The notes under the pieces were generated by a model, which made no database searches, had not been told where the DNA came from, and was given only the letters and a program-made list of their open reading frames with translations. From the IMG/VR virus record IMGVR_UViG_3300036715_002961, positions 24,801 to 88,800 of that record: 64,000 nt of DNA. One strand, given 5' to 3'. Numbering within the stretch: position 1 is the stretch's first letter; each line of letters opens with the position of its first letter. Made by a program: the position numbers and the translations under genes. The stretch comes from a virus. Below are positions 6,516 to 60,309 of the stretch, piece after piece.

Positions 6516-6588
6516 CTGGCGACCTCCAAGGGGGTTTGTGGTCGGCAGTACATCACACGCCACGGGAACCCGGGTTCCCGCGGGGCGG

Positions 6589-7356
6589 TTATCTGAGCGG
6601 GACGTTGCGCAGGTTTCGAGGCGAACCGTCGAGGACGAGGATGCCATCGGCGACCTCGGTCGCGCTTGGCGGGTCGTCGACGCCGACGACGATCTGGGCT
6701 TCGAATGGGACGTAAGGGATCAAAACGACAAGAGTTTGGCTCATCGTGACCTCGACAGACGCTTCGCGGCGGTTACGAATCGCCGATTCTTCGTCACGTT
6801 GACGGTCGCTTTCTTGCCAAAATTCGACGACTTGCTCGTAGTAGTCGGGCAAGAGGAACCGCACGCCGCGGTTTTCCTGCGTCGGATTGAGCGCGTAGGC
6901 AATGCACGAAATAATCGAGCGAGATTCAGCCTTTGAAGATGCGTGGATCTCGATGGCGAATCGCTCGGTGCGGTAGCCGACCCGCTGAAGAACCGTTCCG
7001 AAACCGAACTGGTCGCAGGTCTCTTCCATGACCTGCGGGCCCATGCCAGGGGGCTCGGTTTCCGGGTTCTGGAGCGTCATAAAAACAAGCGACGGGCGGC
7101 GAAGCTCGACCTCGCCGTCGGGCCATCCGATGTGAATGTCCGCCGGCGGGATCTTGAAAAGGATCGGTTCGCCAAGTTCGCCAGTGACCGGGTCTTTGTC
7201 GCCGGGGCGGTAGAAGTTGAGAAGGGACATGTAGCGTTTGAGGACGCGAAGGCCACGCGTGCGGACGTCGACCGAAACGGCAGCCGGGGCTGGCCGAGGG
7301 GGAAACGACGCGTAGGGCGTGCCGACGACCAATTTGGAAAGGGGGAGATCAGCCAT
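6589..7356 (-). CDS. Probable tail terminator / neck protein
   Basis: Position between the HK97-gp10-like gene and the sheath; 255 aa. Confidence 0.5.
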   Translation of the reverse strand: MADLPLSKLVVGTPYASFPPRPAPAAVSVDVRTRGLRVLKRYMSLLNFYRPGDKDPVTGELGEPILFKIPPADIHIGWPDGEVELRRPSLVFMTLQNPETEPPGMGPQVMEETCDQFGFGTVLQRVGYRTERFAIEIHASSKAESRSIISCIAYALNPTQENRGVRFLLPDYYEQVVEFWQESDRQRDEESAIRNRREASVEVTMSQTLVVLIPYVPFEAQIVVGVDDPPSATEVADGILVLDGSPRNLRNVPLR

Positions 7357-7849
7357 TGAATGCCTCTTCGATTGCGTCTGCGATCTCTTCGACCAGGAAC
7401 TCGCCGCTGAGTTTCATCGCGCGTTCCAGGATTCGAAGGCCCTTGCCCTCGTTGAAGATGCCGCGCTTTTGCATGGATTTGGCGATAGCGAACGCGATTG
7501 AGGGCGCTTCGTCCTGCGTTCCGATGCCTTTGCGGACAACCCAACGCGCGAGGTCTTCGAGCATTTGACGGCCGATCTTCACGTTTTGAGACCGAACGCC
7601 GTACTCGATGAACGGGGCATGGGGAGCGACGTTGTAGATCTCGACGCCGTCGGGGGTCGGTTCGGACCGCCAGCCGGCGCGGTAGGCGCCTCGGTCGACG
7701 GGAACACGGGGCTCAGAGGGGATCAGCTCGTTGACGATATGAGCGACGACGCGAGCGCCCGCCGAAACGATGCCCGCGCGAGCCGCCTTCTCGACGCTGG
7801 TCCCAATGTATTGCCGGAGCGCCGGATCCTTGAGGTCGAAAATGGGCAT
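7349..7849 (-). CDS. Virion morphogenesis protein, HK97 gp10-like
   Basis: PVDRGAYRAGW...YNVAPHAPFIEYG motif; start MPIFD with GAGG RBS. Confidence 0.75.
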   Translation of the reverse strand: MPIFDLKDPALRQYIGTSVEKAARAGIVSAGARVVAHIVNELIPSEPRVPVDRGAYRAGWRSEPTPDGVEIYNVAPHAPFIEYGVRSQNVKIGRQMLEDLARWVVRKGIGTQDEAPSIAFAIAKSMQKRGIFNEGKGLRILERAMKLSGEFLVEEIADAIEEAFNG

Positions 7850-7850
7850 G

Positions 7851-11364: not shown

Positions 11365-11396
11365 AAAAAAAGAACCGCCCCGGCGAAGGGGCGGTT
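11365..11396 (-). terminator. Rho-independent terminator after the scaffold gene
   Basis: AACCGCCCC-TTCGCC-GGGGCGGTT followed by CTTTTTTT. Confidence 0.8.
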
Positions 11397-13730: not shown

Positions 13731-13756
13731 GCGGCGACGATACGGGAACCCGGGTT

Positions 13757-14785
13757 CTATCGGCGCCGCCCCGCTCCAATTTCGGATCGGGGGACGGTCG
13801 AGAGCAGGGGTCGCGGGGGAGGCGAGCCCTTGCGACCTTCGCTTCGCCAGCGCGCGAGAACCTCGGCGTCGGTTCGAGGGGTCAGGTACTTGGGTAACGG
13901 CCAAGTAATTTTGTGCAGAACGACGATCTCGCGGTCGTTCGGTCGCGCGGGTGGATTTTCGATTTTCCCTTGCCACGTGTCGAACGACTCGCCGATGCGG
14001 CGGATTTGTCCATGCACTGCGTAGGAGTCGGCCGAGGTTCGATCGTCAAACGTAGCACTGAGGATCCGAAGCAGTTTCCCGCCGCCGACTTGCCGACCGA
14101 CCTCTTCGTGAGTCTCGGCCGCGGCGCGGTTATAGGCACCCATGGTCTCGGTGCGAACAATCCGCTCGGCCCAATAGCGCGGCGACTCTTGCAAAAATGG
14201 CGACTCGGCCGTGATGTCGCGTTCCATGTCGGACCAGCTTTTGCGCTGGATCACTCCCTGCTGGAGACGCGCTTCAAACTGGCCGATGACGCCGGTCCCA
14301 TATCGCTCCAAAATGCCGGCTTTCGCGCGGTGGGTTTCGTCGAGGCCGTTGCGCGCCCCTTCGCCCGACGTTCCGAGGCGCTGTAGGATGGAGGCTCGCG
14401 CGCCCTCGCTTGCTACGTCGAGGGCTTTTGCCTCGTTGAACGCCAGCGGCTGGACGATCCCGGCGAAGCTCGTCTCGGCGACGTTTAGGTAGGTTTGCGT
14501 GTGGTCGACGGCGGCGGCCGCGGCTTGCTCGCCATTTTCGAGGACGACGGCCGCAATGGCTGGTTGGAGATCGCGAAGAACCGCACGCACCTGGACGAGC
14601 GCGGTGTTCATTTGCTCCAGGGTGAAGGTACCAGCGCCGCGACCGCCGCGCGTGTAGCGCGCGATGCGCACTTCGAGTTCGGCCTGCGAATCCCGCAAGA
14701 TCCCCAGCAAACGCTGACGCCCGACTGTCTCAGACAGTCGGGCCGCTTGCATCTGGTTCAATCGCATAACCTCGAAGGGCGTCAA
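13757..14785 (-). CDS. Minor head protein, MuF / SPP1 gp7 family
   Basis: AERIVRTETMGAYN and PPARPNDRE motifs; directly downstream of the portal. Confidence 0.85.
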   Translation of the reverse strand: MTPFEVMRLNQMQAARLSETVGRQRLLGILRDSQAELEVRIARYTRGGRGAGTFTLEQMNTALVQVRAVLRDLQPAIAAVVLENGEQAAAAAVDHTQTYLNVAETSFAGIVQPLAFNEAKALDVASEGARASILQRLGTSGEGARNGLDETHRAKAGILERYGTGVIGQFEARLQQGVIQRKSWSDMERDITAESPFLQESPRYWAERIVRTETMGAYNRAAAETHEEVGRQVGGGKLLRILSATFDDRTSADSYAVHGQIRRIGESFDTWQGKIENPPARPNDREIVVLHKITWPLPKYLTPRTDAEVLARWRSEGRKGSPPPRPLLSTVPRSEIGAGRRR

Positions 14786-16503: not shown

Positions 16504-16763
16504 CGGATACCTCGCGCCGCGAGACTACCGTCGAGAGGACCGTCGTGGGAGGGGGGCGGCCCATTATCAGCCGAGGGCCGCTTGACGAGCATCGCCGCCG
16601 CTTCGGGCGTGACGACTTGCGACGACGAGCACCAGGCCGGATCGTCGTCTTCGTCCTCAGGGGAACCTGGGTTCCCCTCATGGGCCTCAAATTGAGAAAC
16701 GCGCTCGACGACCGCCTTAGCGATCATGAGCGCGAATCGGCGAATCGTAAGTCGGATTTGCAT
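16500..16763 (-). CDS. Hypothetical protein
   Basis: 87-aa ORF coupled to the portal start. Confidence 0.45.
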   Translation of the reverse strand: MQIRLTIRRFALMIAKAVVERVSQFEAHEGNPGSPEDEDDDPAWCSSSQVVTPEAAAMLVKRPSADNGPPPSHDGPLDGSLAARGIR

Positions 16764-19582: not shown

Positions 19583-19678
19583 GGGCCAGAAATAGCAAAC
19601 GCCGAGCGGCGCTGTAGGCCGACTCGGCGAATGTCGTCGAAGAGGGGAACCCGGGTTCCCCTCGCGCGCGGGGGCGCG

Positions 19679-23494: not shown

Positions 23495-25114
23495 TTATCC
23501 TCGCAAATATCCTACTTCGACCGAGCCAAATACCTTCCAGTCCGAACGGACTCGAACGGTGTAACCAACTCCCGGGTTGACCTCGAAACGGGCCGTCGCG
23601 GGGAGAATCGAATGCACGAACGCACCGTTGTCTGCGGTAGAACCTTGAAGGTTGGCGACAAAGACAGTCGACGCGGACACGGATGGATCGACGACGACCG
23701 TTTCGGCGAGCTGACCGCCGGAAACGCCGAAGTCGACGGTGACAAATCCGGAGATCCCTCCAGAGGAACCCGGGTTCGAGACCAGCGTGTACGGCGCCGT
23801 TAGGGGGACGGACGCCCACGCCTTCGCGGATGTGTCGGCATTGTCTGTAAACTTGAAGTTAGCAGCGGCGCCCGCAATCGTCGGTCGCTGGGTGAACGCA
23901 AACTGTGCGCCGCCGCCAATGAGCACGCCAGACCCCGCACTCGTTCCGTACGTTGCCCCGGCCGACTCAAGGTTTGAAAACGGCGTGAGAACAATGCCGT
24001 TTAAGACGCCATCAAAAAACCCGCAGTTCTGAATGACAGCCGACGACCCCGTCATGAGTTTGAGGGACTCATTGTAGCGAGTCCCGCCCGCTGTTGCAGC
24101 AAATGTGCAGTCCGCGAAGGTGACGCCATTGCCAGCAAAAACTTCACAGCGGCGAATGGTGCACCAAGTGTAGAAACCATTGAGCGCAGTGGCTTGCGGA
24201 TTCAGCGAATCGAAGTAGCACTTGATGATATTCGCGGAAGATCCGCCAATCATTCCGCTGGAAAATGACCGGACCCTGCACCGCGTCATGACCGCAAAGC
24301 CAAGCGACGGGGCCGTGGGCTCGAAGACGTCAAGGGCGCCATCGGTCCCGATATCCAGAGCGTCAATCAGCAAATATGCTTGTCCGCTCCGGTACTGGGT
24401 GACGCGCAACAATCCCGGATAGACGCGAGGCAAACGCCACTCATCGTAGCTGTCGGTCGGCGGCAACGTCACATCGGGGTAGACAAATGCCGGTGGCACG
24501 AGGTCGACGTCGCAGCCCGCGTCGAGGCCCGCGACGAGCCCAGTCGCCTTGTGGACCCAGTGAAATGCGCCGTTGCTGCCGCGGATCAGCTGCCCCGGAG
24601 CGAGAGGGAAACCGACGGGGGCCGTGACCGAGGCACGCGTGTTGGCGGGCGCGCTGAGCGCCGTTGCCGCGGACCCAGCGCGGGCCGTGGCGACGATACC
24701 GTTGGCGCCAGTGATCGCGAAATACCCGCCGCCGCCGTCGATGCAAATATCGAGGTAGATTGGATCGGTATCGGGAGTGTCCGACATCACGTGCACGATC
24801 GTTTGCTGCGGGATGCGCTTACCATTAAGGCGCGCACCAAGCTCCGCCCACGTGGCGATTGCGGTCCCGCTCGTGAGCCCGTTGTTGGCGTCGTTTCCAG
24901 TCGCGGGATCGATGTACCAGGCGGCTTGCGTACTCACTGCTTGGGGAAGCGGCGTGGAGCCGCCCGACGAAGCGCCGTTGTCTACCCAGGCCGCCCCGTT
25001 GTAGGTCCACAAATGACCATCGCCAGACAACACCACCGTGTCGCCCTTCGCGGGCGACACGGGAAGGGCGGCGACGACGGCCGGCCGAAGGGCGCTGAGC
25101 AGCTCGATGGCCAT
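23495..25114 (-). CDS. Tailspike-like protein with beta-helix (pectate-lyase-like) region
   Basis: WYIDPATGNDANNGLTSGTAIATW motif; repetitive I.NC.F-type strands. Confidence 0.65.
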   Translation of the reverse strand: MAIELLSALRPAVVAALPVSPAKGDTVVLSGDGHLWTYNGAAWVDNGASSGGSTPLPQAVSTQAAWYIDPATGNDANNGLTSGTAIATWAELGARLNGKRIPQQTIVHVMSDTPDTDPIYLDICIDGGGGYFAITGANGIVATARAGSAATALSAPANTRASVTAPVGFPLAPGQLIRGSNGAFHWVHKATGLVAGLDAGCDVDLVPPAFVYPDVTLPPTDSYDEWRLPRVYPGLLRVTQYRSGQAYLLIDALDIGTDGALDVFEPTAPSLGFAVMTRCRVRSFSSGMIGGSSANIIKCYFDSLNPQATALNGFYTWCTIRRCEVFAGNGVTFADCTFAATAGGTRYNESLKLMTGSSAVIQNCGFFDGVLNGIVLTPFSNLESAGATYGTSAGSGVLIGGGAQFAFTQRPTIAGAAANFKFTDNADTSAKAWASVPLTAPYTLVSNPGSSGGISGFVTVDFGVSGGQLAETVVVDPSVSASTVFVANLQGSTADNGAFVHSILPATARFEVNPGVGYTVRVRSDWKVFGSVEVGYLRG

Positions 25115-26676: not shown

Positions 26677-26728
26677 GGGCTGGATGATACTCGACGGGAA
26701 CCCGGGTTCCCGTCGAGCGGGGGCGATT

Positions 26729-29269: not shown

Positions 29270-30171
29270 TCGCCGATCTCCAGTGATTGACCGTCGCGTA
29301 GTTCCTTGAGCCGTTCGTTCGGATCGACGCAATCGAGCATCTTTTCGCGCATGTAATAGACGACGGAAATCCGTTCTGCGTCCTCGGATTCCGAGACCAT
29401 GTCGGTGACACCGTGCCACTCGTGCGAGTTGAAAAACAGCACGTCTCCATCTTGGAGATCGACCGCGACACCGTATTCAGGGAATCCGAGAAGCGCGCCC
29501 GTGTACTTGCCCCGGCGGACCATGGAGATCACGCCGAATCCGTCTTTGAAGTCGCCTTTGTCCGTGTGGGTTCCGCTCGGCGCCGTGTTGTTGTTGACGG
29601 TCAGTGTCGTGAAGGGCGTCCCGGAAATGACGAACTCGGAGCGACAACGATCGCAGGCGGTGAGCTGGGCCTTGTAGCGGCTCGGCGAGGTCCGCTTGAA
29701 GAGGTCCGCGACGTGCGTGATCATCGGCATGATCGTCTGCCACTTTTCAGGCTCTTGCGCATTGAACGAGGTCTCGCGGCAGAACGGGAATCGGCCGCCT
29801 TGGCGATCGAAGTATCCGATGATTGCGGACGCAACAGCCACGAGGTGTCCGTTGGCATCACGCGTCTCTGTGTTTTTGCCAACGGTTCCATCCGCGAATA
29901 CTTTACGGGGACGTTTGGCACCCGCATATGCACCGCGATTCGTCGATTTCCGCTTACGTAGATCGTGGAGGGCGGGGTAAGCGCCATCGGTCAGCTCGAC
30001 GGGGATGGCCCTACGACGGAGCATCAGCAATGGCGCTCCGTCGGGCTTATAAACGTCCGCATCGCCGGTGAGCAGAACGGGGAGGTCGGAGGCCGAAAGC
30101 AGCTTACCGGCGAATACAGACGCACCGCCGGCGACGCGAGAGCGGAGTTGAAGCACGGGGACGGCGGTCAT
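29266..30171 (-). CDS. TET/JBP-like 2-oxoglutarate Fe(II) dioxygenase
   Basis: IIGYFDR, FTTLTVN, HTDKGD (HxD), HEWHGVT (distal His), ERISVVYYMREKM (2OG-binding Arg). Confidence 0.88.
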   Translation of the reverse strand: MTAVPVLQLRSRVAGGASVFAGKLLSASDLPVLLTGDADVYKPDGAPLLMLRRRAIPVELTDGAYPALHDLRKRKSTNRGAYAGAKRPRKVFADGTVGKNTETRDANGHLVAVASAIIGYFDRQGGRFPFCRETSFNAQEPEKWQTIMPMITHVADLFKRTSPSRYKAQLTACDRCRSEFVISGTPFTTLTVNNNTAPSGTHTDKGDFKDGFGVISMVRRGKYTGALLGFPEYGVAVDLQDGDVLFFNSHEWHGVTDMVSESEDAERISVVYYMREKMLDCVDPNERLKELRDGQSLEIGE

Positions 30172-30791
30172 TGGATCGCCTTTCGAAGCGCCGCAAGGAC
30201 GGTTTGAGAGAGGTCGGTCGTTTGGAGCTTCGCCGCGGCGCGCTTCGCGAGGGCGATGAACTCGGTGTGTTCCGGTTTTTGGAACAGAACCGAAACCAGG
30301 TTGACCGTGGTCTTGGCGGGGTCGAGTGAGACAGCTGGGAACCCGGGTTCCCTCGCGGGCGCGGGGACGTCGACGGGAATTTCGGGGATCCCCAGCTCAA
30401 GAAAAAATTCGTCGCCGTCGATGGGGACCTCCATGCCGTCGAGCATCGCGCGCAACAGAGCCGGATCGAACGCGCCGCGCTTCGCGTTGAGTTTGATCGT
30501 CAACGCTTTCGCCTGCACTTCGGTCAGGTCGTGCAGCTCGACGACTGGGCCGACGAGGAAACCGAGTTCCCGGGCGGCGCGCCATCGGTGCTCGCCGTCG
30601 ATGATGAGATCGCGGCGCTCGCCGGTCTCGTCGGTAGCCCAAACGAGCAGGGCCTGGGAGGCGATCCATCCGTCGTTGCGGAGGCCGTGAACAAGCGCGG
30701 CGCGCTCGCGCGCGCTCATGCGGTTGGGGTTCCATGGGTTCGGATTGAGCGAGAGAAGCGGCAGATTTTTGGCGGGTTGCATCGGTTTCAC
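30168..30791 (-). CDS. ParB/Srx-like protein, paralogue A
   Basis: NPWNPN, IIDGEHRWRAA motifs; C-terminus with strand-helix-helix pattern. Confidence 0.85.
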   Translation of the reverse strand: MKPMQPAKNLPLLSLNPNPWNPNRMSARERAALVHGLRNDGWIASQALLVWATDETGERRDLIIDGEHRWRAARELGFLVGPVVELHDLTEVQAKALTIKLNAKRGAFDPALLRAMLDGMEVPIDGDEFFLELGIPEIPVDVPAPAREPGFPAVSLDPAKTTVNLVSVLFQKPEHTEFIALAKRAAAKLQTTDLSQTVLAALRKAIQ

Positions 30792-31450
30792 GTGTCACCT
30801 ACGACGAGCTTGAGGGCCGAGAGGATGGTTTCGGGGACGGGGCGGCCGGCGATCAACGCGCGGAACTCGGCGTGCTCGGGGACGTCGAAAAACAGCTGCA
30901 CGTTGACGACGGCGGGCCGGGTCGACTGATGATCTTCGCCGACGGCGAACACAGGCGCGGCGGCGCCAATGGAGCTTTCCTCAGCCTGGATTTCCAGGGG
31001 CGCGACGGCGAGCATTTGCATGAGGCTCTCGCGCTCGATGCCAAGGTCGAGGCCGAGATCTTCGGATCCGAGGGCGAACTGAATCTCGCGAACAAGCGCT
31101 TCGAGACTCTCGCGTTTGAAGGTCCCGCGCTTCGAGTTGAGCTTGATCGTGAGCTTCTTTGCGTCGTTTTCGGAGAGGCCTTCGAGGCGGACGATCGGCC
31201 CTTCAACGATGCCGAGGCCGGTCGCCGCGCGCCATCGGTGCTCGCCGTCGATGATGAGATCGCGGCGCTCGCCGGTGGCGTCCGTGCTCCAAACGAGCAG
31301 GGCCTGGGAGGCGATCCAACCGTCGTTGCGAAGGCCAGCTTCGAGGCTCTCGCGCTCGAACTCGGTCATGCGGTTAGGGTTCCACGGGTTCGGCCGGAAC
31401 TGGTCGAGCAGTTCGTTCTGGCAGTTGCCGATGATTTTCTGGGTCGTCAT
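30788..31450 (-). CDS. ParB/Srx-like protein, paralogue B
   Basis: NPWNPN, IIDGEHRWRAA; N-domain nearly identical to its neighbour. Confidence 0.85.
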   Translation of the reverse strand: MTTQKIIGNCQNELLDQFRPNPWNPNRMTEFERESLEAGLRNDGWIASQALLVWSTDATGERRDLIIDGEHRWRAATGLGIVEGPIVRLEGLSENDAKKLTIKLNSKRGTFKRESLEALVREIQFALGSEDLGLDLGIERESLMQMLAVAPLEIQAEESSIGAAAPVFAVGEDHQSTRPAVVNVQLFFDVPEHAEFRALIAGRPVPETILSALKLVVGDT

Positions 31451-36470: not shown

Positions 36471-36782
36471 TTAAACTGCATGCCAGGGGGCCGCAAGCAT
36501 GGACGGGAACCCAGGTTCTCGTCCGCGGGACGCCTGGAGAAAGGCGCCGAGGCGCCGAGCGGCGGCGCGGATCGCCTCACGACGCCCCGCAAACGCGTCG
36601 ATCGCCCGGTTGAGGCGCAGCGAATCGGGAACCGGGCGCGCGCCCGCGAGCGCCGCGCGACGCTCCCATTCTTGAAGATGCTCGCAAAATGCTAGCTCGG
36701 CCCAACGGTCGACGATGCCGCGAGGGCGGCGAGCGTCGCCGACACGGGCGATCCACCGCCAACGCTGCACTGAGCGCTTCAC
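36471..36782 (-). CDS. Hypothetical Arg-rich protein
   Basis: GTG start overlapping the upstream stop. Confidence 0.4.
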   Translation of the reverse strand: MKRSVQRWRWIARVGDARRPRGIVDRWAELAFCEHLQEWERRAALAGARPVPDSLRLNRAIDAFAGRREAIRAAARRLGAFLQASRGREPGFPSMLAAPWHAV

Positions 36783-40136: not shown

Positions 40137-40181
40137 GGGAGGATCCTCAGGTAGCGGGAAGGAAGGGAACCCGGGTTCCCT

Positions 40182-42524: not shown

Positions 42525-43051
42525 CACCGACTGGGACGATTCACGCCAAACGACCGCAGTCGCGAAAGAACCCGTCGGGGCGAAAGACTCCCGTCGCAGC
42601 ACGCGTCGGAGCGGCGACAGGCTCCCCACGGACGCGAGGCGCGGACGGTGGGGGCGAGCGAGTAGGAGCCGAGGCGGGCGGTCTCGTTGCCTTCGTCGTC
42701 GAGGCGGATAGCGAATGCGCGGCGGTCGCGACCAAATCCAAACAAAACACGAGACCGGCTGCGGCTGGCCACAAAAACCACGGAAACGTGGTCTGCGGAG
42801 GCCGGCGAGCGCCCTTCGTAGGCGACGCCGACTTGAAATCGATGGGGCGGGAACCGGGTCGCTCGGCGCTGGACAAGGGCGCCATCGCAGGCAATGCGAG
42901 AGATCGTTCGCCACGGGCGCCCGCGGGTACCATCCTCGCAAGGGAACCCGGGTTCTCGTAGATCGTCGCAAACAGGGCGGCCGAGGCCGGGGTAGCCGCG
43001 CGCGGGCGAGCATGTCTCGCGAATAGGAAGCGAAGGGGGCGGGGCGCTCAT
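42524..43051 (-). CDS. Hypothetical protein
   Basis: MSAPPPSLP..., ATGA coupling; 3' part of the spurious 537-aa ORF. Confidence 0.45.
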   Translation of the reverse strand: MSAPPPSLPIRETCSPARGYPGLGRPVCDDLREPGFPCEDGTRGRPWRTISRIACDGALVQRRATRFPPHRFQVGVAYEGRSPASADHVSVVFVASRSRSRVLFGFGRDRRAFAIRLDDEGNETARLGSYSLAPTVRASRPWGACRRSDACCDGSLSPRRVLSRLRSFGVNRPSR

Positions 43052-43880: not shown

Positions 43881-43916
43881 AGACCGCGCGCGCTTTTTTG
43901 GACAGGAACCCGGGTT

Positions 43917-44210
43917 CTACAAGTGAAACCGCCGGCGAAGGGCCGGGCGGGACGCCAGAATGGGGGCAAGGGGGCCGAGCATGGAGACGATCCCAGTAGG
44001 GCCGAACTCGGCGAGGCGGCGGCGATCATTCGCCACAAGCTCGCGAACCGCATGGCGGCGGGCGTCGATCGTGTAGTGCTTTCGCGAACGCCGATTTTGA
44101 CAGCGACCGACGCGACGGAATAGCCGCCAAGGGCCACCGAGGACGGTATGCACGAGGGCCGCTTGGGCCCGGTAGATGGCGAGCAGGGGGTCGAGGGCGG
44201 ACCGTCTCAT
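43917..44210 (-). CDS. Hypothetical basic protein
   Basis: MRRSALDPLL..., ATGA coupling. Confidence 0.45.
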   Translation of the reverse strand: MRRSALDPLLAIYRAQAALVHTVLGGPWRLFRRVGRCQNRRSRKHYTIDARRHAVRELVANDRRRLAEFGPTGIVSMLGPLAPILASRPALRRRFHL

Positions 44211-44398: not shown

Positions 44399-44955
44399 AA
44401 GTCCCCCACAAGGTGAATCCACCGACCGGCGAGGTCGCGATAGCGCGCCGCGTGCAGGCGGCGGCATTGGATCAGGCAGGACTTGAGGTAGCGACGAGAG
44501 GCCGGAACGGAGCCGTCGCGCGTGGCGCGGAAACGGTCGGGGCGACGACAGACGGCGGTGATAGCAGGGTAGTGATCGCGAGCCGCTCGGCGCGCTTTTG
44601 CGTAGGTCGGGTCGAGGTTCGAGGCGCGGCCGGCACGCCGACAGGGGACGATCGTGATCGTACCCGCGAAGGCGGGCCCCTTACCGGGGAGCGCGGCGGC
44701 GCTGTCGGAGAGGGGGACCGGGGCGTAGGGGTCGAAATAGGCCACAAATGGGACCTCGACACCTTCGATGAGGACCGTGCAGCGGCGCGCCTCGATGGTC
44801 CGAAGGGGCGTTGCCGCGGCCTTGATACGCTCGACCGCGGCGGTTACGTCGGCAAGCGTCAAGGGGTCGCCCGCGGACACGGAAAGGGCCGCGTCGACGG
44901 ACGTGAAAACGGAGGGAATGGAACCCGGGTTCCCTTCGTCACGGTCGGCGCTCAC
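44395..44955 (-). CDS. Hypothetical protein
   Basis: 186 aa, GTGA coupling. Confidence 0.55.
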   Translation of the reverse strand: MSADRDEGNPGSIPSVFTSVDAALSVSAGDPLTLADVTAAVERIKAAATPLRTIEARRCTVLIEGVEVPFVAYFDPYAPVPLSDSAAALPGKGPAFAGTITIVPCRRAGRASNLDPTYAKARRAARDHYPAITAVCRRPDRFRATRDGSVPASRRYLKSCLIQCRRLHAARYRDLAGRWIHLVGDL

Positions 44956-47928: not shown

Positions 47929-48830
47929 CGGGTCAACCTCCTGAACTCATGCAAACTTTCGGTCAACGCAGCGGCGTACTGTTTCGCCCGCTGCTCCATG
48001 GCGGTCATGGCCGTCAGTAGCTTGTCAAAATCGATCTTCATTCGATCGTGTTTGATCACGAGGTCGGCCGTCTCGCGCTCTGCTTTGACGACCGCTTTCG
48101 TGAGGACGTCGATCTGGTCGCCGTCGGGGCCGGGTTTGAGGCGAGCTTCGAGGGCGGTCACGCGCGCCATGGCGGCGTTGGCAGCTTCGTTGTACAAGCC
48201 AGGGCCGCGTTTGACGTAGTCGGGAAGGCCGGGGGCGCCGGCTACGATGACCGCGGTTCCAGGCACGGACGCAGCGGCCCATTTGAGCGCCGCGTTGGCC
48301 GCGTCTGAAGACTGAAAATAGACAGCGCAACTCGGGTCGAGCGTCAAAAACGCGTTAGAGATCACCGGGTCTTCGGCGAGGTAGAACCGCGGGTTCGAGT
48401 CGGGAAGTTGCGAGATAGCCGGTTCGGCGCCGTTGGGGATCGCGGCGAAACCGACCGACGGGACCTCGACGACCCAGCCGGTTTCGTAGGCGTGGCAGAG
48501 GAAGTCGGGTGGATTGCGCAAGATCTCGTTGGAGTACATGCGCGCGAGGGTCGAGATCCGTTCGCAGGCGGCCGCGTGGCGATGATGGATAGCGTCGAGT
48601 TCCTGTCGGAGAGCAGGGGAACCCGGGTTCTCTTCGAGCACTTCAAGGCGTCGAAACAAAACGGGGACGTAGGTGCGTGCCCATTCAGCAAGGCGGAAAC
48701 GTCCGCGGTCGGGGAAGCTCTCGCCGGCGCTCTCTTGAACGATCGCGTCAAACTCGGTCTTGGCAACCTTGGCAACAGATGCGTGGAAGGTCTCGGATTC
48801 GGCCGCGCGGGTCAGCTCGTTTTCTGACAT
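47925..48830 (-). CDS. Hypothetical protein with coiled coils
   Basis: 301 aa from MSENEL. Confidence 0.6.
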   Translation of the reverse strand: MSENELTRAAESETFHASVAKVAKTEFDAIVQESAGESFPDRGRFRLAEWARTYVPVLFRRLEVLEENPGSPALRQELDAIHHRHAAACERISTLARMYSNEILRNPPDFLCHAYETGWVVEVPSVGFAAIPNGAEPAISQLPDSNPRFYLAEDPVISNAFLTLDPSCAVYFQSSDAANAALKWAAASVPGTAVIVAGAPGLPDYVKRGPGLYNEAANAAMARVTALEARLKPGPDGDQIDVLTKAVVKAERETADLVIKHDRMKIDFDKLLTAMTAMEQRAKQYAAALTESLHEFRRLTR

Positions 48831-48978
48831 GTTCAACGGCCCTTTCGATCCCGTTGGCAAACACACATCTTCTCACCGCTAACGACCTCAATGCGCTGGT
48901 AGCCGCGAACATGAACGCCAGTTTTACGCGGGATTCGGAACAGCTTGAGGGTCGTAACCAACTTGGTATTTGCGAGCA

Positions 48979-50591: not shown

Positions 50592-51292
50592 GGCTCGCAC
50601 CGTTCGCGCCATTCGTCGAGCAGCAACTCGACGATCTCTGCGTCGGCTACCGTGTCAATGGGGCGAGTCGTCGCGACGGTTGAGTTGTCGAGGTTGAGGA
50701 ATCGCCCGATTTCACAGTTGGTAAACTCCCGATCGCGAAGAACTCCGACAACGATGCGGCGGGCGCGAACTACGCTTTTGAACCGGGCGCTGGTGAGCAG
50801 GTCGTCGGCGAAAACGTCGCAGCAATTGGCGGCAGTCTTGACCAGGCGAGCGATGCGCGGGGGAAGATCGACAAGAGTTCGCCGCTTGGGCCTCGGCTTG
50901 AGCTTCTTTGGTGGCTTAGACTGCACCGCCGGGGCGCTTGTGGGCGGAAGCGCGGGGGTGGGCGGAAGCGCGGGGGTGGGCGGAAGCGGCGGAAGCGGGC
51001 GCGGAACTGGCGGAAGCGGGCGCGGAACTGGCGGGATGATGACCGGGTCGAACGACGAATCAGAATGGGGGGCGTGAGCGGGGGCGACAGGAACCCGGGT
51101 TCCCTTGAGCTTGTTCAGCGGATGCTGGCAGACAGGGGGAGCGGCGATCGTTCCGATCAGCCGCTTGTCGACCGACGACGTTTTCTCGTTGCCGCATTTT
51201 TTGCAGCGCCAGAGGGTCGTGACGAGCCAGCTGTAGTCGGCGCGAGGCGTCGACGAAACCAGATCCCAGTTGGAGAGGGGGGTGCCTTTCAT
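50588..51292 (-). CDS. Zn-ribbon + proline-repeat linker + DnaA domain-IV-like HTH protein
   Basis: CKKC; PVPRPLP/PPTPAL repeats; DDLLTSARFKSVVRARR...EIGRFLNLDNSTV matches the DnaA C-terminal signature. Confidence 0.7.
   Translation of the reverse strand: MKGTPLSNWDLVSSTPRADYSWLVTTLWRCKKCGNEKTSSVDKRLIGTIAAPPVCQHPLNKLKGTRVPVAPAHAPHSDSSFDPVIIPPVPRPLPPVPRPLPPLPPTPALPPTPALPPTSAPAVQSKPPKKLKPRPKRRTLVDLPPRIARLVKTAANCCDVFADDLLTSARFKSVVRARRIVVGVLRDREFTNCEIGRFLNLDNSTVATTRPIDTVADAEIVELLLDEWRERCEP
50940..51033. repeat. In-frame tandem repeats (18-bp and 21-bp units)
   Basis: GTGGGCGGAAGCGCGGGG x2+ and GGCGGAAGCGGGCGCGGAACT x2. Confidence 0.85.
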
Positions 51293-53829: not shown

Positions 53830-54126
53830 TCAGTTGGAAACCGCGAGCGGGTTCGGGTGGGTGCAGTTCATCCCGTAGAAAGCCCCGCGCATGAGGGGGC
53901 CGCGCATGTGCGGATCGATGAAGATCCGAGGGCCAAACAGAATCGGCAGGCCGAAGGGGAAGGCAAGGCTCGCGGTCGGGAACAGCTCGCGAAGCTCGGC
54001 GAGAACGACACCGGCTGCGGCGGGGGAGACGACGACCGCGATCCCCGTGCTACCGCCAGCGCCGTTCAGGTTCGCGAGAATTTGAATGACGGCGGCGGCG
54101 TTGGGCTGCGGAATTTGTGGGTTCAT
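53830..54126 (-). CDS. Hypothetical protein
   Basis: 98 aa, ATGA coupling. Confidence 0.45.
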   Translation of the reverse strand: MNPQIPQPNAAAVIQILANLNGAGGSTGIAVVVSPAAAGVVLAELRELFPTASLAFPFGLPILFGPRIFIDPHMRGPLMRGAFYGMNCTHPNPLAVSN

Positions 54127-56506: not shown

Positions 56507-57081
56507 TTGACCTTGTAATCAGCGCCGACGATGGACCGCCACGGGGCGTCGGCTGGCTTGAGGGTCGACTCGACGAACGCGTCGAGGGCGGCCTTGGTCG
56601 GGAACGACAGCTCGACGACATGCTTCGCGACCGGCTCGGGGGGCAGATCCACGGGGACGATCGGATCGTTGATCCGAACGAACGACTCGACCTCGGAAAC
56701 TGCGAAGCCGGTGAGCGATAGGTCGAAATTCTGCTTCGACAGGTCGATGAGGACGGCGGAGAGTTTCTGCTCATCCCATTCAGCGGCTTCGTTGAGGCGG
56801 TTGTCGGCGAGCGTAAACGCGGCGGCCTGCTCGTCGGTCAACTCGATGAAATGGACCGGAATTTCCCTCAAACCGAGCTTGAGAGCGGCTTTGACGCGGG
56901 TATGACCGGCGAGGATCCGAAGGTCGGAGGTACGAACGACAACGGGCGACGCAAATCCGAAGGTCTCGATGCTGCGGGCAACCTTCGCGACGACGTCGTC
57001 GTTACGACGAGGGTTTTGATCCCAGGGGACCAGGCGGCGGGGGTCGATGACGAGGCTATTCGTGATCTTTTTTGAGGCCAT
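56503..57081 (-). CDS. ParB/Srx N-terminal-domain protein
   Basis: LVPWDQNPRRND, SIETFGF..PVVV, ILAGHTR.KAA, LADNR.NE..EWD. Confidence 0.88.
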   Translation of the reverse strand: MASKKITNSLVIDPRRLVPWDQNPRRNDDVVAKVARSIETFGFASPVVVRTSDLRILAGHTRVKAALKLGLREIPVHFIELTDEQAAAFTLADNRLNEAAEWDEQKLSAVLIDLSKQNFDLSLTGFAVSEVESFVRINDPIVPVDLPPEPVAKHVVELSFPTKAALDAFVESTLKPADAPWRSIVGADYKVK

Positions 57082-57622
57082 GAGCGACGATCCTTTGAAG
57101 AGCGCTGTGCGTGAGCAACGCGTCGAGGTAGGAGGCCGCAACCGAGCATTTTTCGGGGGCGGCATCGGGGAGGGGCGCGGGGTCCCGTAGCAGCAAAATC
57201 GGCGAGAGGACGCCGATTAGACCGGTACGGCGGACGTAGGCAGAGGGGAGGAAAATTCGCCAGGGCTGACCGTTGCGACGAAAGATCAAGAGCGGCTCGC
57301 CGGCCTGCTCGTCGGCTGCTTTCCAGGACTGCCGCCACCACGACCAGGCGGGATGTCGGGCGGCGGCGCCGCGGGCGGTTTGGAGCCGAGAGCCGGCCTC
57401 GCGCCGTTTCACTTCGATGACGAAGGGAAAGTCGACCGAGGTCGTCATGAGGTCGCCCGACGCCTTGAACCCAGCGCGAAGATCTTTCGTGCCCCAGCCG
57501 CCCGACGCGGGCGTTCGCGCGAAGCGAGCGGCGGGGTCGTGGGCCTGCCACCAGGGGGCGACCAGGCGAGCGATTTCCAGCTCGGCCGAGGCGCCCTTGA
57601 CGCGGCTGCTCCTACCGCCCAC
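57056..57622 (-). CDS. Holliday junction resolvase, Hjc-like PD-(D/E)xK
   Basis: SRVKGASAELEIA...GD...IEVKRR...W.Q...PLLIFRRN. Confidence 0.85.
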   Translation of the reverse strand: MGGRSSRVKGASAELEIARLVAPWWQAHDPAARFARTPASGGWGTKDLRAGFKASGDLMTTSVDFPFVIEVKRREAGSRLQTARGAAARHPAWSWWRQSWKAADEQAGEPLLIFRRNGQPWRIFLPSAYVRRTGLIGVLSPILLLRDPAPLPDAAPEKCSVAASYLDALLTHSALQRIVAHGLKKDHE

Positions 57623-57845
57623 GGCGACGGGCGCTCAGGGCGGCGCGACGGGCGGCGCGGTTGGGAAGGGCGGCGATCTGCTCTCGATGACGCTTCTGGG
57701 CGTTTTCCAGGATCGCAGCCAGCTCGACGCGCCCTTCGGGGGTCTTGGTCAGCTCGTTGTAGCGTTCGAGCATCGCGCGCTGCGTCTTGGTCAAATTCGG
57801 GAAGGAATCGATGTCGAGGGGCTTGGAGAGGTCGACCGGGTTCAT
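57612..57845 (-). CDS. Hypothetical protein
   Basis: 77 aa ending NRAARRAA. Confidence 0.55.
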   Translation of the reverse strand: MNPVDLSKPLDIDSFPNLTKTQRAMLERYNELTKTPEGRVELAAILENAQKRHREQIAALPNRAARRAALSARRRGR

Positions 57846-59818
57846 TGGATCCTTGGGACGGCCGAGCCGTCGTTGTTTTCGATGGAGATGCGAGAGGGGA
57901 GTGCGTCGAGCGCGTCGGGGGAATGGGCGATGACGAAGGCCTGCTGGATACCGGCGGCCGCGAGCATTTTAGGGATCGCGGCCGAGAGGGCGCGGCGGTT
58001 TGCCTTGTCGAGTTGGCCGAACGGCTCGTCGAGGATCGCGAGCGAGAGCTTGCCACCGCGTTGCGCGCGGAGCCACGCGGAAGCGGCAAGTTGGAATGTC
58101 AGGCCCGCCAGATCTTCGGCCGCGCCCGACTGGTCCGAGAGCAGAATTTCGAGCTTGTCGGAGGTCTGGAGGCCGCGGGCGGCGCCGCACGCACCGCACA
58201 CTTTGATCTTGGCCGAGGCCGGGAACGCAGCGCCGCAAACATCGCAAGCCTTTGCAGGCTCCTTGCCTTCGCGCTGCCACGAAACGCTGAGCGAGAGGTT
58301 GATTCCGGCAGCCGAAAGCATGTCGTTTGCGAGCACTTGGATCGCGCCGAGGCTCTGCTCTGCGACCATCCGTTGCGCACCCGTGCGACCAAACACGACC
58401 CCGGCGGCGCGTAACAGGTCAACCTCGGTTTGCGTCTTACGAATCGCCTCTTCGTGCTCGGCTTTCGAGGCATGGAGCTTGTCGATGTAGGCGAGATCGC
58501 GGTCGGCCGCTTCGAGCAGGGCCGACGCTTCGCGAACGTCACGCGTGGCGGATGAAAACTCGTCGTCGGCGCTACGGTACTCGGCCGTGACTGCGTCGGC
58601 GTCCGACTGGGCGAGCAGCGCTTTGGCCTCTTTGTACCGAGGGATCAAAAACTGCACGTCGTTGCGCAGCGAATGGATGCGGCCTTCGAGGCGCGCGAGG
58701 CGCGCGCGGATCTGCGTCGCGCGCTCTTCGGTCGCACGCGCATCGCGGGCGGAGCGGTCGAGACCGGTCAGCTCGGCGGCGATTGCTGCCGATTTCTTTT
58801 CGGCGTTGCTCCGCTGCATGTCGATTTCGAACCGGGCTGGGCACTCGAAATCGACGACGGGGCAACGGCCGTCGAACTTCCCGCCGGCGACCAGGTCGAG
58901 AGACCGGCGGGTCGACGCCAGCTCGTTGCATCGCACCTCAAGAGCCGATGTTTTTGCACGCAAAGCGGATGCTTCGCCGCCTTCGGGGAGAGCGGCAATA
59001 TCCGACCGAAGGCTGGCGATCTCTTCGCCGACGGTCTGCCCGTCAGCGACAAGGGCGTTGCGGCGCGCGACGACCTCGCGAGCGGCGGCGATGCGGTTGA
59101 CCGCTTCGACGTTCCCGACAACACGGTCTTTCGCCGCGCTGAGTCGTTTCGCCGCCGTAGACGACTCGTCGAGGGCGTAAACGCGACGGTCGAGGACGTC
59201 TTCGCGGTCGCGGGTCGCGAGCTGCGCGGTGGTCTCGTCGAGGCGCGCACGGGACGCGGCGAGCTGCGCAAGGGCGACGCTGAGCCGACCGCGAACCAGC
59301 GTGTCGGCCGCCTGGAGCGGTTCCAAGCGGAGCCACGCGGAGACGATCTCCATGCGCGTTTCCGGGCGCGCGAGGATCAGGCGAGCGATCTGGCGCTGCT
59401 GAATGCAGGTCGAGGCAAAGAAATCGGCCTCGTCGACACCCGTCAGCTCGACGATGCGGCGCTGCGCTTCGTCCTGGGTCGATTCGGCGGTGGCACCGTC
59501 GAGAACGTGGCGACACGTCAGAACCGTTTTCTTGCCTCGGTGACGCTCGCGGCGAACGATCGTGCCGTCGTCGAACTCCAACTGCACAGCACCGAACGAC
59601 TCGTTGTTGTTGATCCATTCGTCGGCGGTGCGCTTGCGATGGACGCCATAGAGCGCAAACCCGATCGATTCGATGAGCGAGGTTTTGCCGAGCCAGTTGG
59701 AGCGCTCTTCGTTGTCGGTCGAGCGGGCGACGATCGCGTAGGCTGTGTCGTCGATGTCGAGGTCGAAGGCGCCGCGGTAGCAAAGCCAGTTTGCGAGGAT
59801 AATTTTGGAAATTCTCAC
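57842..59818 (-). CDS. sbcC: SbcC/Rad50 (T4 gp46-like) ATPase
   Basis: NWLGKTS Walker A, Q-loop, coiled coil with central CP hook, QSGAA signature, ILDEPFGQLD, IAH. Confidence 0.9.
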   Translation of the reverse strand: MRISKIILANWLCYRGAFDLDIDDTAYAIVARSTDNEERSNWLGKTSLIESIGFALYGVHRKRTADEWINNNESFGAVQLEFDDGTIVRRERHRGKKTVLTCRHVLDGATAESTQDEAQRRIVELTGVDEADFFASTCIQQRQIARLILARPETRMEIVSAWLRLEPLQAADTLVRGRLSVALAQLAASRARLDETTAQLATRDREDVLDRRVYALDESSTAAKRLSAAKDRVVGNVEAVNRIAAAREVVARRNALVADGQTVGEEIASLRSDIAALPEGGEASALRAKTSALEVRCNELASTRRSLDLVAGGKFDGRCPVVDFECPARFEIDMQRSNAEKKSAAIAAELTGLDRSARDARATEERATQIRARLARLEGRIHSLRNDVQFLIPRYKEAKALLAQSDADAVTAEYRSADDEFSSATRDVREASALLEAADRDLAYIDKLHASKAEHEEAIRKTQTEVDLLRAAGVVFGRTGAQRMVAEQSLGAIQVLANDMLSAAGINLSLSVSWQREGKEPAKACDVCGAAFPASAKIKVCGACGAARGLQTSDKLEILLSDQSGAAEDLAGLTFQLAASAWLRAQRGGKLSLAILDEPFGQLDKANRRALSAAIPKMLAAAGIQQAFVIAHSPDALDALPSRISIENNDGSAVPRIQ

Positions 59819-60309
59819 AGGCGAACCTCGGCGGCGATGCTTTGAATGAGGGCGTTGAACGCAGGGCGATGTTGTTCGGGGAGAACAACGGCGGCGGCGG
59901 CCTGCTCGACGGCCTCGCGAAGGGACGGAACCGCGACGACCGCGAGTTTTGAGACGTCGGGGATGACCGCGCCTTTGGGGCGGGGAAACACGATGACGGA
60001 GGCGGCGACGTCTGCGAGAGCCGCTTTCGAGAGCCGAATGTCTTCGTCGGTCGCGTCCACGCCGGGGCGAAGGCGGACGATCTTGTCGGCGTAGCGCGAG
60101 GGGACGAGGATCGGGAGATCTGTGACCGTCACCAGGTCACGAAGAACGTCGATCCGCTCGCTCTCGACCACGAGGGGAACCCGGGTTCCCGTCTCAACAG
60201 CGGGCGGCGGGGCGAAGTACTCAGCCGCGCTCGGGGGCGGTTTCTTAGTCTTCGGAGGCTTGTCAACGGGCGGGTCGGTCGGTTGTTTTGAGGACGATTT
60301 GCGAGCCAT
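59815..60309 (-). CDS. Hypothetical protein between SbcD and SbcC (possible detached SbcD C-terminal domain)
   Basis: Translationally coupled to both; KIVRL... beta/alpha segment and terminal helices. Confidence 0.5.
   Translation of the reverse strand: MARKSSSKQPTDPPVDKPPKTKKPPPSAAEYFAPPPAVETGTRVPLVVESERIDVLRDLVTVTDLPILVPSRYADKIVRLRPGVDATDEDIRLSKAALADVAASVIVFPRPKGAVIPDVSKLAVVAVPSLREAVEQAAAAVVLPEQHRPAFNALIQSIAAEVRL

What the first reader, a model, noticed from the sequence alone, without database searches (positions are those of the whole stretch)
6564..60190. Genome-wide network of a 12-16 bp palindrome (GGGAACCCGGGTTCCC) in a phage encoding four ParB-like proteins
Seen: 14 perfect GAACCCGGGTTC copies (starts 6566, 11404, 13746, 19647, 23766, 26698, 30339, 40167, 42944, 43906, 44921, 48619, 51091, 60177) and 2 one-mismatch copies (16663, 36507), mostly 1-6 kb apart. 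My rough estimate of the chance expectation for this 12-mer at about two-thirds GC is ~0.01 per window. Copies lie in spacers and inside genes in all three reading frames (peptides GTRVP, EPGF, NPGS), often in linkers, so selection acts on the DNA. Some intergenic copies extend to 22-28 bp perfect palindromes (19642-19663, 26690-26717, 40162-40183). Known: ParB-family CTPases load on dispersed 14-16 bp palindromes (parS; the Bacillus Noc site ATTTCCCGGGAAAT shares the CCCGGG centre), and mycobacteriophage stoperators are dispersed repressor sites. Inference: these are binding or loading sites for a phage dimeric protein. The best candidates are the ParB paralogues co-transcribed with the TET/glycosyltransferase genes, which would make a site-loaded clamp system that directs DNA modification, compaction or packaging.
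Basis: partly seen in the sequence, partly recalled or inferred. Interest (0 to 1): 0.9.

Follow-up and report, generated by a model that had tools for sequence, protein, structure and literature searches.

The report
Private dispersed palindrome sites in phage

Summary
The window has 14 perfect and 2 one-mismatch GAACCCGGGTTC copies at the stated places, and the 88.8-kb record has 20 perfect copies against 0.01-0.05 expected.

The word is really a 13-mer, always in one orientation relative to the genes. It lies mostly in spacers, usually just after a stop codon. Copies inside genes sit in variable linkers.

Spacing is more even than chance in 6 of 7 related genomes (combined P 5e-12). At least nine relatives each carry a different perfect 16-24-bp palindrome, in all-or-none copies.

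Full dyad symmetry, half-site mixing, weak hairpins and the absence of U-tracts point to double-stranded DNA read by a symmetric dimer. They argue against terminators or RNA hairpins.

The TET/glycosyltransferase link fails: two relatives have the sites but no TET. The TET-adjacent ParB paralogues have a CTPase-type fold and no helix-turn-helix. Their C-terminal domain does not co-vary with the palindrome.

A better candidate lies outside the window, next to the DNA polymerase gene. It is a zinc-ribbon protein with a ParB/Noc-type DNA-binding domain (Z 8.3-9.0). No binding has been shown.

The scan has met this kind before on other phage DNA. In print, the closest parallel is the unexplained 17-bp repeat of Cluster O mycobacteriophages.

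The parts
6566..6577 (.). palindrome site, perfect 12-mer (18-bp palindrome); spacer, 11 nt after a stop codon
11404..11415 (.). site, perfect; 8 nt after a stop, followed by a canonical terminator (11396-11373) ahead of the major head gene
13746..13757 (.). site, perfect; overlaps the TAG stop of gene 13757-14710
16663..16674 (.). site with one mismatch (GAACCTGGGTTC); spacer between the tail-fibre and portal genes
19647..19658 (.). site, perfect (22-bp palindrome 19642-19663); 20 nt after a stop
23766..23777 (.). site, perfect; inside gene 23495-25114 (codon 445 of 539)
26698..26709 (.). site, perfect (28-bp palindrome 26690-26717); 19 nt after a stop
30339..30350 (.). site, perfect; inside the disordered linker (EPGF) of ParB_N gene 30168-30791
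36507..36518 (.). site with one mismatch (GAACCCAGGTTC); 25 nt before the start of gene 35792-36481
40167..40178 (.). site, perfect (22-bp palindrome 40162-40183); 3 nt after a stop
42944..42955 (.). site, perfect; in a non-coding stretch 42436-43048
43906..43917 (.). site, perfect; in a non-coding stretch 43359-44395
44921..44932 (.). site, perfect; 19 nt after the stop of gene 44952-46070, at or just before the start of gene 44395-44955
48619..48630 (.). site, perfect; inside called gene 47925-48836 (codon 68 of 303)
51091..51102 (.). site, perfect; inside called gene 50588-51292 (codon 63 of 234)
60177..60188 (.). site, perfect; inside called gene 59815-60309 (codon 40 of 164)
30168..30791 (-). 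ParB_N (CTPase-type fold, GEHRWRA) + linker + C-terminal strand-helix-helix protein.
30788..31450 (-). tandem paralogue of the gene above. G001, G307 and G308 each have only one copy.

Best explanation
The palindromes are docking sites on double-stranded DNA for a symmetric, sequence-specific dimer encoded by the phage. The dimer's specificity drifts together with its sites, so each lineage ends up with a private word.

The most likely reader is the 389-residue protein encoded just upstream of the DNA polymerase gene. It lies at genome 4424-5593 on the minus strand, about 19 kb before the window. It has an N-terminal helical part, a CxxC...CPxC zinc ribbon, a ParB/Noc-type helix-turn-helix DNA-binding domain and a small C-terminal beta domain.

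About twenty sites are kept at roughly 4-kb intervals over the whole genome. They sit where a fixed 16-bp word costs least: spacers directly after stop codons, and linkers inside proteins.

What the bound protein does is inferred, not shown. I think genome-wide control or insulation of the single-direction transcription is most likely, in the manner of KorB operators or stoperators, or else marking and organisation of the phage chromosome.

Shown: the sites themselves, their placement, spacing and turnover, and the fold of the candidate protein.
For: 1. Excess and all-or-none conservation.
- 20 copies are seen against 0.01-0.05 expected.
- G307 has 26 perfect 18-mers and none with 1-2 mismatches. 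G001 has 20 perfect 16-mers and one with 1 mismatch. Each genome's word has 0 copies in the other three.

2. Private words in relatives.
- G001 (terminase only 38% identical) has 21 copies of the same core, as CTGGGAACCCGGGTTCCCAG.
- G307: CCCAAACCCGGGTTTGGG x26. G308: ATTCGAAAAGCGCTTTTCGAAT, about 19 sites.
- G312 x15, G313 x18 and G314 x29 copies of their own 18-20-mers.
- More in L229, L247, L220, L227 and L270.

3. Evidence for DNA and against RNA.
- In the eight well-populated families, the arms found by a gap-tolerant search run to the centre, so even the would-be loop is self-complementary.
- In G308, 7 of 8 variant sites combine different half-site types without compensation. The same is seen in L247.
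- Predicted hairpin energies range from -6.3 to -17 kcal/mol.
- 0 of 16 window sites fit a hairpin-plus-T-run scan, and site 11404 is followed by a real terminator.
- Copies inside genes lie in real, conserved genes: helicase residue 101 of 487, an insertion in the DNA polymerase tail, and a conserved 450-residue protein at residue 337.

4. Placement.
- Sites in spacers number 14 of 22, 11 of 21, 17 of 26 and 17 of 20, against 6-11% non-coding DNA (P 4e-9 to 3e-15).

5. Spacing.
- The coefficient of variation is 0.37-0.64 against about 0.93 under the null. P is 0.010, 0.011, 0.0004, <0.0002, 0.068, 0.009 and 0.0001, and Fisher's combined P is 5e-12.

6. Candidate reader.
- Residues 188-304 align with ParB/Noc/Spo0J DNA-binding domains at Z 8.3-9.0, rmsd 2.1-3.2 A over 91-98 residues.
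- The top 10 rows are all ParB/Noc, and the next unrelated row scores 5.6.
- Orthologues are present in 8 of 8 complete palindrome-bearing genomes tested, and in G318, which has 9 copies of a 12-mer.
- None is found in G310, G316 or G319, where I saw no palindrome family.
- G000 and G001 share the word. They alone share Lys-aromatic-Ala at the start of the putative recognition helix, although the two proteins are only 23-25% identical overall.
Against: - No binding has been shown.
- Foldseek E-values for the candidate are weak (0.1-0.7). Pfam and a PDB sequence profile find no ParB domain in it. A Z of 8-9 for a helical domain is in the range the tool itself calls middling.
- G317 is 98% complete and has the candidate protein, yet I saw no perfect palindrome family in 60 of its 90.8 kb.
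- The three records without the protein are incomplete (59-88%). In two of them only about 20 kb was examined.
- All the correlations are confounded by shared descent.
- G307 and G308 have similar recognition helices but different words.
- The sites hug stop codons or ribosome-binding sites: 40 of 56 spacer sites are nearer the upstream stop (P 0.002). The G000 word is oriented with transcription. An RNA-level reading explains both of these more directly.
- No site lies consistently next to the candidate gene.
Confidence: 0.5

Rival explanations
1. The TET-adjacent ParB paralogues (30168-30791 and 30788-31450) load at the palindromes as CTP-dependent clamps and direct DNA modification, compaction or packaging.
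For: - The N-domain has the ParB/Noc/KorB CTPase-type fold: Foldseek E 4e-6 and PDB sequence hits to Noc/Spo0J at E 1e-4, with GEHRWRA aligned to GERRWRA.
- Homologues are present in G001, G307 and G308.
- G000 alone has two paralogues and alone has an asymmetric word.
- One site lies in the gene's own linker.
- KorB offers a precedent. I saw PMC11790492 only as a search listing and abstract; the copy number of its operators is recalled.
Against: - There is no helix-turn-helix. After residue ~133 come a disordered linker and a strand-helix-helix.
- The C-terminal strand is almost the same in G308 (ARMVQLYF) and G312 (VRMVQLFF), whose words are unrelated. It differs between G000 and G001, which share the word.
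- Full-length homologues occur in loci without a repeated palindrome, such as L248, L255 and L257.
- TET, PIG-L and TAGT have no match in G001 or G307.
- No ParA was found in the Pfam scans of about 110 proteins.
Confidence: 0.1
2. The palindromes act as hairpins in the sense transcript. They would be processing sites, barriers to exonucleases, or nut-like antitermination signals read by a fast-evolving RNA-binding protein.
For: - Sites lie 0-21 nt after stop codons, or in G308 10-20 nt before the ribosome-binding site.
- The G000 word is oriented with transcription, 11:0.
- All genes lie on one strand.
- Site 11404 sits just upstream of a strong terminator, as nut sites do. The nut comparison is recalled.
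Against: - The centre of every populated family is itself self-complementary, which an RNA loop does not need.
- Variant half-sites are mixed without compensation.
- In 10 of 22 G000 sites the sense RNA would carry an A-C mismatch where the antisense strand has G-U.
- G308's hairpin is weak, at -6.3 kcal/mol.
- Some copies lie inside essential genes.
- No Rfam family matches in the window.
Confidence: 0.13
3. The palindromes are selfish, REP-like mobile elements that spread recently in each lineage.
For: - Copies are identical within a genome, and the words are private and patchy among relatives.
- The intragenic copy in the G001 DNA polymerase lies in a ~20-residue insertion.
- Positions turn over between G000 and G001.
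Against: - Even spacing and a lack of large gaps are not expected of random insertion.
- There are almost no decayed copies.
- The same 16-mer is kept in G000 and G001, although their proteins are 25-57% identical.
- No transposase family appeared in the Pfam scans.
Confidence: 0.07
4. The sites are read by a host factor, for example a LexA-type repressor (the word fits GAACN4GTTC), or they belong to a host repeat family.
For: - The word fits the Bacillus-type SOS box GAACN4GTTC (passage read in PMC4234289).
- Some Chloroflexota MAGs carry 2-11 copies of the 14-mer, against 0 for the reversed control. One set belongs to a 72-nt tandem repeat.
- G000 and G001 share the word without being closer to each other than to G307 or G308.
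Against: - The N4 is CCGG in 20 of 24 (G000) and 21 of 22 (G001) GAACN4GTTC matches, and the flanks are fixed too.
- Relatives use words that fit no single host motif.
- Density in the 5 whole MAGs checked is at most 11 per 5 Mb, against 20 per 88.8 kb in the phage.
- Only 1 of 300 other sampled Chloroflexota genomes has the 14-mer.
- About a fifth of the bacterial hits are simply the tips of longer hairpins.
Confidence: 0.07

Closest known systems
17-bp dyad repeat of Cluster O mycobacteriophages (TGTTCGGNNNCCGAACA; PMC4351075: abstract, passages and section 8 read)
   Same: - Both have tens of invariant copies spread through a 70-100-kb phage genome.
- Both show a mix of short spacers and coding sites.
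- In both, the word is absent from other phages.
- The authors suggested a dimeric regulator, and the function is unknown.
   Different: - Here the palindrome is perfect to the centre, with no free spacer.
- Relatives carry quite different words, and even spacing is shown statistically.
- The phage clade and its hosts are unrelated.
- A candidate reader with a ParB/Noc-type domain can be named.
KorB operators (OB) on plasmid RK2, and Noc/ParB sites (NBS, parS) (PMC11790492: listing and abstract only; site sequences and numbers recalled)
   Same: - Short perfect palindromes are dispersed over a whole replicon.
- They are read by a ParB-family helix-turn-helix dimer.
- Action can extend beyond the site.
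   Different: - The candidate reader lacks the N-terminal CTPase domain and has a zinc ribbon instead.
- The CTPase-type fold sits in separate proteins without a helix-turn-helix.
- No ParA was found.
- The element is a phage genome with no integrase or partition genes found.
- CTP dependence is untested.
Stoperators of Cluster A mycobacteriophages (PMC9283540: abstract and passages read; PMC6550527: listing only)
   Same: - More than twenty repressor sites lie throughout the genome, in short intergenic spaces.
- Orientation is tied to the direction of transcription.
- Site sequence co-evolves with the protein.
   Different: - Stoperators are asymmetric 13-mers read by a monomer in temperate phages.
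- Here the sites are palindromes of 16-24 bp, and no integrase or immunity repressor was found.

Membership tests
ParB/parS-type systems (ParB, Noc, KorB) | Site is a short (about 13-16 bp) palindrome | tested here: met
   The core is a 16-bp perfect palindrome, extended to 18-24 bp in relatives.
ParB/parS-type systems (ParB, Noc, KorB) | Reader carries the ParB/Noc-type helix-turn-helix DNA-binding domain | tested here: met
   Met by the protein at genome 4424-5593: Z 8.3-9.0 against ParB/Noc/Spo0J DNA-binding domains. Foldseek E-values are weak, and there is no Pfam or PDB sequence match. Not met by the TET-adjacent paralogues.
ParB/parS-type systems (ParB, Noc, KorB) | CTPase N-domain (GERRxRA) and DNA-binding domain in one polypeptide | tested here: not met
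   The DNA-binding-domain protein has a helical N-terminus and a zinc ribbon. The ParB_N proteins (GEHRWRA) lack a helix-turn-helix.
ParB/parS-type systems (ParB, Noc, KorB) | ParA-type partner ATPase | tested here: not met
   No ParA/CbiA-type family was found at E <= 0.01 in Pfam scans of about 110 called proteins. A few replication proteins were scanned with PHROGs only.
ParB/parS-type systems (ParB, Noc, KorB) | Specific binding to the site, and CTP-dependent sliding | not testable with these tools
   Needs EMSA, BLI or ChIP-seq with and without CTP.
Cluster O-type dispersed dyad repeats | Tens of invariant inverted-repeat copies throughout the genome, both between and inside genes | tested here: met
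   There are 20 perfect copies in 88.8 kb. Of the 22 sites, 14 are in spacers and 8 in genes.
Cluster O-type dispersed dyad repeats | Word absent from the host genome | tested here: inconclusive
   The host is unknown. The 5 MAGs checked whole have 1-11 copies per 5-6 Mb.
Stoperators (Cluster A mycobacteriophages) | Asymmetric 13-mer read by a monomeric repressor | tested here: not met
   The sites are palindromes. Only the flanking base is asymmetric in G000.
Stoperators (Cluster A mycobacteriophages) | Short intergenic location with orientation tied to transcription | tested here: inconclusive
   The spacer bias is strong. Orientation bias is seen in G000 (11:0) but not in G308 (12 vs 12 deviations).
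Intrinsic terminators | G+C-rich hairpin followed by a U-tract | tested here: not met
   0 of 16 window sites were reported by the terminator scan, and no T-run follows the sites.
REP elements with RAYT transposase | Y1 transposase gene and high copy number in the host chromosome | tested here: inconclusive
   No transposase family appeared in the Pfam scans. The host genome is not known.

The most novel reading that the evidence does not exclude
This is a 'split ParB' self-marking system. The zinc-ribbon protein with the ParB/Noc-type DNA-binding domain docks on about 20 evenly spaced private palindromes. It then recruits or loads the separately encoded CTPase-fold ParB_N proteins, which spread from the sites. 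The phage chromosome is thereby marked as self, for silencing, protection or, where present, TET/glycosyl modification. Competition among co-infecting relatives drives each lineage to a new word.
Probability: 0.12. Interest if true: 0.85.

Novelty: new variant of a known kind. Interest (0 to 1): 0.62.

Why it matters
Dispersed invariant palindromes have been seen in phage genomes since the Cluster O work of 2015, without an explanation. This clade offers a natural experiment.

- It would give a tractable case of protein-DNA specificity co-evolving at about twenty sites at once.
- It would show a ParB/Noc DNA-binding module working without its CTPase domain.
- It would give a handle on how large lytic-looking phages organise or control a genome that is transcribed in one direction.

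Tried and rejected
- Intrinsic terminators: rejected. There are no T-runs, and 0 of 16 sites were flagged.
- Restriction-site logic: rejected. CCCGGG is not enriched or avoided outside the word.
- CRISPR-repeat mimicry: considered and rejected. No array-like spacing appeared in the hits. The one tandem case (G003, 72-nt period) has conserved 'spacers'.
- LexA box (GAACN4GTTC): rejected as the main reading, because the spacer and flanks are fixed and relatives use unrelated words.
- G-U strand test on the palindrome flanks: no consistent strand. It favours plus in G000 and slightly minus in G001.
- Divergent plus-strand repressor gene in the non-coding stretches: no coding-like ORF found.
- The gene downstream of the DNA polymerase (genome 409-1143) as reader: it is a conserved helical protein with no DNA-binding signature in Pfam or PHROGs. 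Not pursued further.
- Close relatives of G000, to date site gain and loss: none found in phage records, viral contigs or metagenome contigs.
- The zinc-ribbon protein gave only 3-6 hits with the word-indexed protein search before the full HMMER search found the family.
- The member carrying the Pfam Sigma70_r4 hit was not found by two Pfam batches. I located it only with a recalled helix-turn-helix pattern, so that assignment is provisional.
- Gene calls are my own crude codon-bias calls. Start codons are uncertain, so 'inside gene near the start' cases may in fact be spacers.
- Supplementary files of papers were not requested.
- Searches behind 'not in print': the 12-mer as text found one unrelated paper. 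One four-term search on phage palindromic intergenic repeats was run. No search was made for ParB DNA-binding-domain-only proteins, so I make no claim about their novelty in print.

Full report
**What is there.**
- The window is bases 24801-88800 of an 88,800-base virus record with 63.5% G+C.
- Profile matches identify a large terminase, portal, major head protein, tail fibre, baseplate, DNA polymerase, primase, DnaB-like and other helicases, SbcCD-like nuclease subunits and a UvsX-like recombinase.
- My codon-bias gene calls put all 113 genes on the minus strand, covering 89% of the record.
- GAACCCGGGTTC occurs 14 times perfectly and twice with one mismatch in the window, at the stated coordinates.
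- It occurs 20 times perfectly in the record, against 0.01-0.05 expected under Markov orders 0-4.
- The conserved word is in fact GGAACCCGGGTTC on the plus strand: 20 of 20 copies, against 10 of 20 for its mirror. All copies therefore share one orientation relative to the genes.
- CCCGGG itself is at expectation.

**Placement.**
- Of the 22 sites (20 perfect and 2 near), 14 lie in spacers that make up 11% of the DNA. Six of these lie 0-20 nt after the stop codon of the upstream gene.
- The same holds in relatives: 11 of 21 (G001), 17 of 26 (G307) and 17 of 20 (G308), with P from 4e-9 to 3e-15.
- Of 56 spacer sites, 40 are nearer to the upstream stop than to the next start (P 0.002).
- In G307, 12 of 17 spacer sites start 1-6 nt after the stop.
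- In G308 the sites either touch the TGA stop or lie 10-20 nt before the ribosome-binding site.
- Copies inside genes are in real, conserved genes, but in variable segments. These are a ~20-residue insertion in the tail of the G001 DNA polymerase, residue 101 of 487 of a helicase, residue 337 of 450 of a conserved protein, and the disordered linker of the ParB_N gene in the window.

**Spacing.** Gaps between sites are more even than chance. The coefficients of variation are 0.60, 0.60, 0.51 and 0.37, against about 0.93 for random positions or random gene junctions. They are 0.64, 0.57 and 0.45 in three further complete genomes. Fisher's combined P over the seven genomes is 5e-12.

**Relatives.**
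- A scan of viral contigs for the 14-mer found one multi-copy record, G001 (98.4 kb). It has 21 perfect copies, as CTGGGAACCCGGGTTCCCAG, although its terminase is only 38% identical. Of the 113 proteins, 41 have BLASTP matches at 24-57% identity.
- Relatives found through the major head protein (50-60% identity) and through the ParB_N protein family lack this word, but many have their own:

| Record or locus | Word | Copies |
|---|---|---|
| G307 | CCCAAACCCGGGTTTGGG | 26 |
| G308 | ATTCGAAAAGCGCTTTTCGAAT | about 19 sites |
| G312 | GTCGGTGATCGATCACCGAC | 15 |
| G313 | TTGGAAACCCGGGTTTCCAA | 18 |
| G314 | CCGCAACACGTGTTGCGG | 29 |
| L247 | GACCAAAAGGYGCYTTTTGGTC | 5 in 20 kb |
| L229, L220, L227, L270 | smaller sets of their own words | 2-3 each |

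- Some relatives show none in the DNA examined: G310, L218, L221, L222, L224/225/231, L248, L257, L258, L263, L264.
- Copies are all-or-none. G307 has 26 perfect 18-mers and none with 1-2 mismatches. Each genome's word is absent from the other three.

**DNA or RNA?** Four observations favour double-stranded DNA read by a symmetric dimer.
- In the populated families, the inverted arms run to the centre, so the would-be loop is self-complementary too.
- In G308, each half-site independently takes one of three forms, and 7 of 8 variant sites are uncompensated. L247 behaves alike.
- Hairpin stability is not conserved, ranging from -6.3 to -17 kcal/mol.
- No site fits a terminator scan. Site 11404 is followed by a separate canonical terminator ahead of the major head gene.

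Three things speak for an RNA-level role: the closeness to stop codons, the closeness to ribosome-binding sites, and the orientation of the G000 word. I keep that reading as a rival.

**Who reads the sites?** Pfam confirms the cluster of ParB_N x2, Tet_JBP, PIG-L and TAGT. The link to the palindromes fails on four counts.
- TET, PIG-L and TAGT have no match in G001 or G307.
- The two paralogues have a ParB/Noc/KorB-type N-domain, then a disordered linker and a strand-helix-helix tail. I read that tail as ribbon-helix-helix-like, which is my inference. They have no helix-turn-helix.
- The tail's strand is nearly identical in G308 and G312, whose words are unrelated. It differs between G000 and G001, which share the word.
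- Full-length homologues occur in loci without palindromes.

I tested this.
- The 389-residue protein at genome 4424-5593 has orthologues in all 8 complete palindrome-bearing genomes tested, at only 22-29% identity.
- An AlphaFold model built on a 72-sequence alignment has mean pLDDT 79.
- Residues 188-304 of the model align with ParB/Noc/Spo0J DNA-binding domains at Z 8.3-9.0. The top ten rows are all of that family.
- Foldseek E-values are weak, and sequence profiles see nothing.
- The start of the putative recognition helix varies between genomes. G000 and G001 alone share Lys-aromatic-Ala.
- The protein is missing from G310, G316 and G319, all incomplete and with no palindrome seen. It is present in G318, which has 9 copies of a 12-mer.
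- It is also present in G317, where I found no perfect family in 60 of 90.8 kb.
- The association is therefore suggestive. It is confounded by descent and is not proof.

**Host question.**
- The host is unknown.
They returned almost only single sites.
- Five MAGs checked whole had 1-11 copies of the 14-mer per 5-6 Mb.
- Only 1 of 300 other sampled Chloroflexota genomes had any copy.
- About a fifth of the bacterial hits are tips of longer hairpins.
- That density is at least 100-fold below the phage's, but it does not exclude a host factor.

**Comparison with what is known.**
- The closest described case is the 17-bp dyad repeat of Cluster O mycobacteriophages. It has 34 copies, both between and inside genes, and its function is unknown (PMC4351075).
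- KorB operators and Noc/ParB sites are the closest mechanistic models. Stoperators are the closest in placement and co-evolution (PMC9283540).
- This is not a canonical ParB system. The DNA-binding domain and the CTPase-type fold lie on different proteins, and no ParA was found.

**Verdict.** The finding is real. The scan has reported the same kind on other phage genomes before, so this is a further member of a recurrent, still unexplained kind.

Noticed in passing
whole record (window 1-64000 and 24.8 kb upstream): Strong avoidance of two 6-bp palindromes: GAGCTC 0 seen against 38 expected, and CTCGAG 2 seen against 58 expected. This suggests host restriction pressure.
   Followed up: no
genome 107-232 and the last 126 bases of the record (window 63875-64000): The last 126 bases repeat bases 107-232 of the record. 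This is either a terminal redundancy or an assembly overlap that is offset from the record's start.
   Followed up: partly
window 11373-11396 (minus strand): A canonical terminator (9-bp G+C-rich stem and T-run) lies about 10 nt downstream of palindrome 11404 and upstream of the major head gene.
   Followed up: partly
window 54123-54392 (minus strand): An 89-residue protein whose C-terminus looks like sigma-70 region 4.2. Pfam Sigma70_r4 matched some member of the scanned set at E 8e-9. I assigned the hit to this gene using only a recalled pattern.
   Followed up: partly
window 53175-53714 (minus strand): An MT-A70-type DNA methyltransferase (PHROG E 3e-50). Among the four full genomes it is shared only with G001 (51% identity), the one relative with the same palindrome.
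   Followed up: no
window 42436-43048 and 43359-44395: Two stretches of 0.6 and 1.0 kb have no coding-like ORF on either strand. Each holds a palindrome. They may be an origin or a regulatory or RNA region. Rfam finds nothing there.
   Followed up: partly
window 31596-32054 (minus strand): The 'third ParB/Srx-fold gene' of the first-stage notes has no ParB match in Pfam or PHROGs at E <= 0.01. It is conserved at 42-43% identity in G001, G307 and G308.
   Followed up: partly
window 62478-62572 (minus strand): ARAGORN calls one 95-nt tRNA-Ala(TGC)-like gene. No Rfam family reaches its gathering score anywhere in the window.
   Followed up: no
one of the genes in window 31596-63728 (member not identified): A Pfam Tad4 (Thoeris inhibitor) match at E 7.5e-5 and a PDDEXK_15 endonuclease (57056-57622, E 2e-20) hint at anti-defence content.
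   Followed up: no
G001:C1:87406-90063 (L080): The terminase of the relative G001 lies in a 913-residue open frame. Its two matching parts are about 1 kb apart, which looks like an intein or another insertion.
   Followed up: no
L211:1366-1797 (a Chloroflexaceae MAG contig): A 72-nt tandem repeat whose units carry GGGGAACCCGGGTTCCCC-like hairpins. It is a host repeat family that shares the phage's core word, probably by chance.
   Followed up: partly
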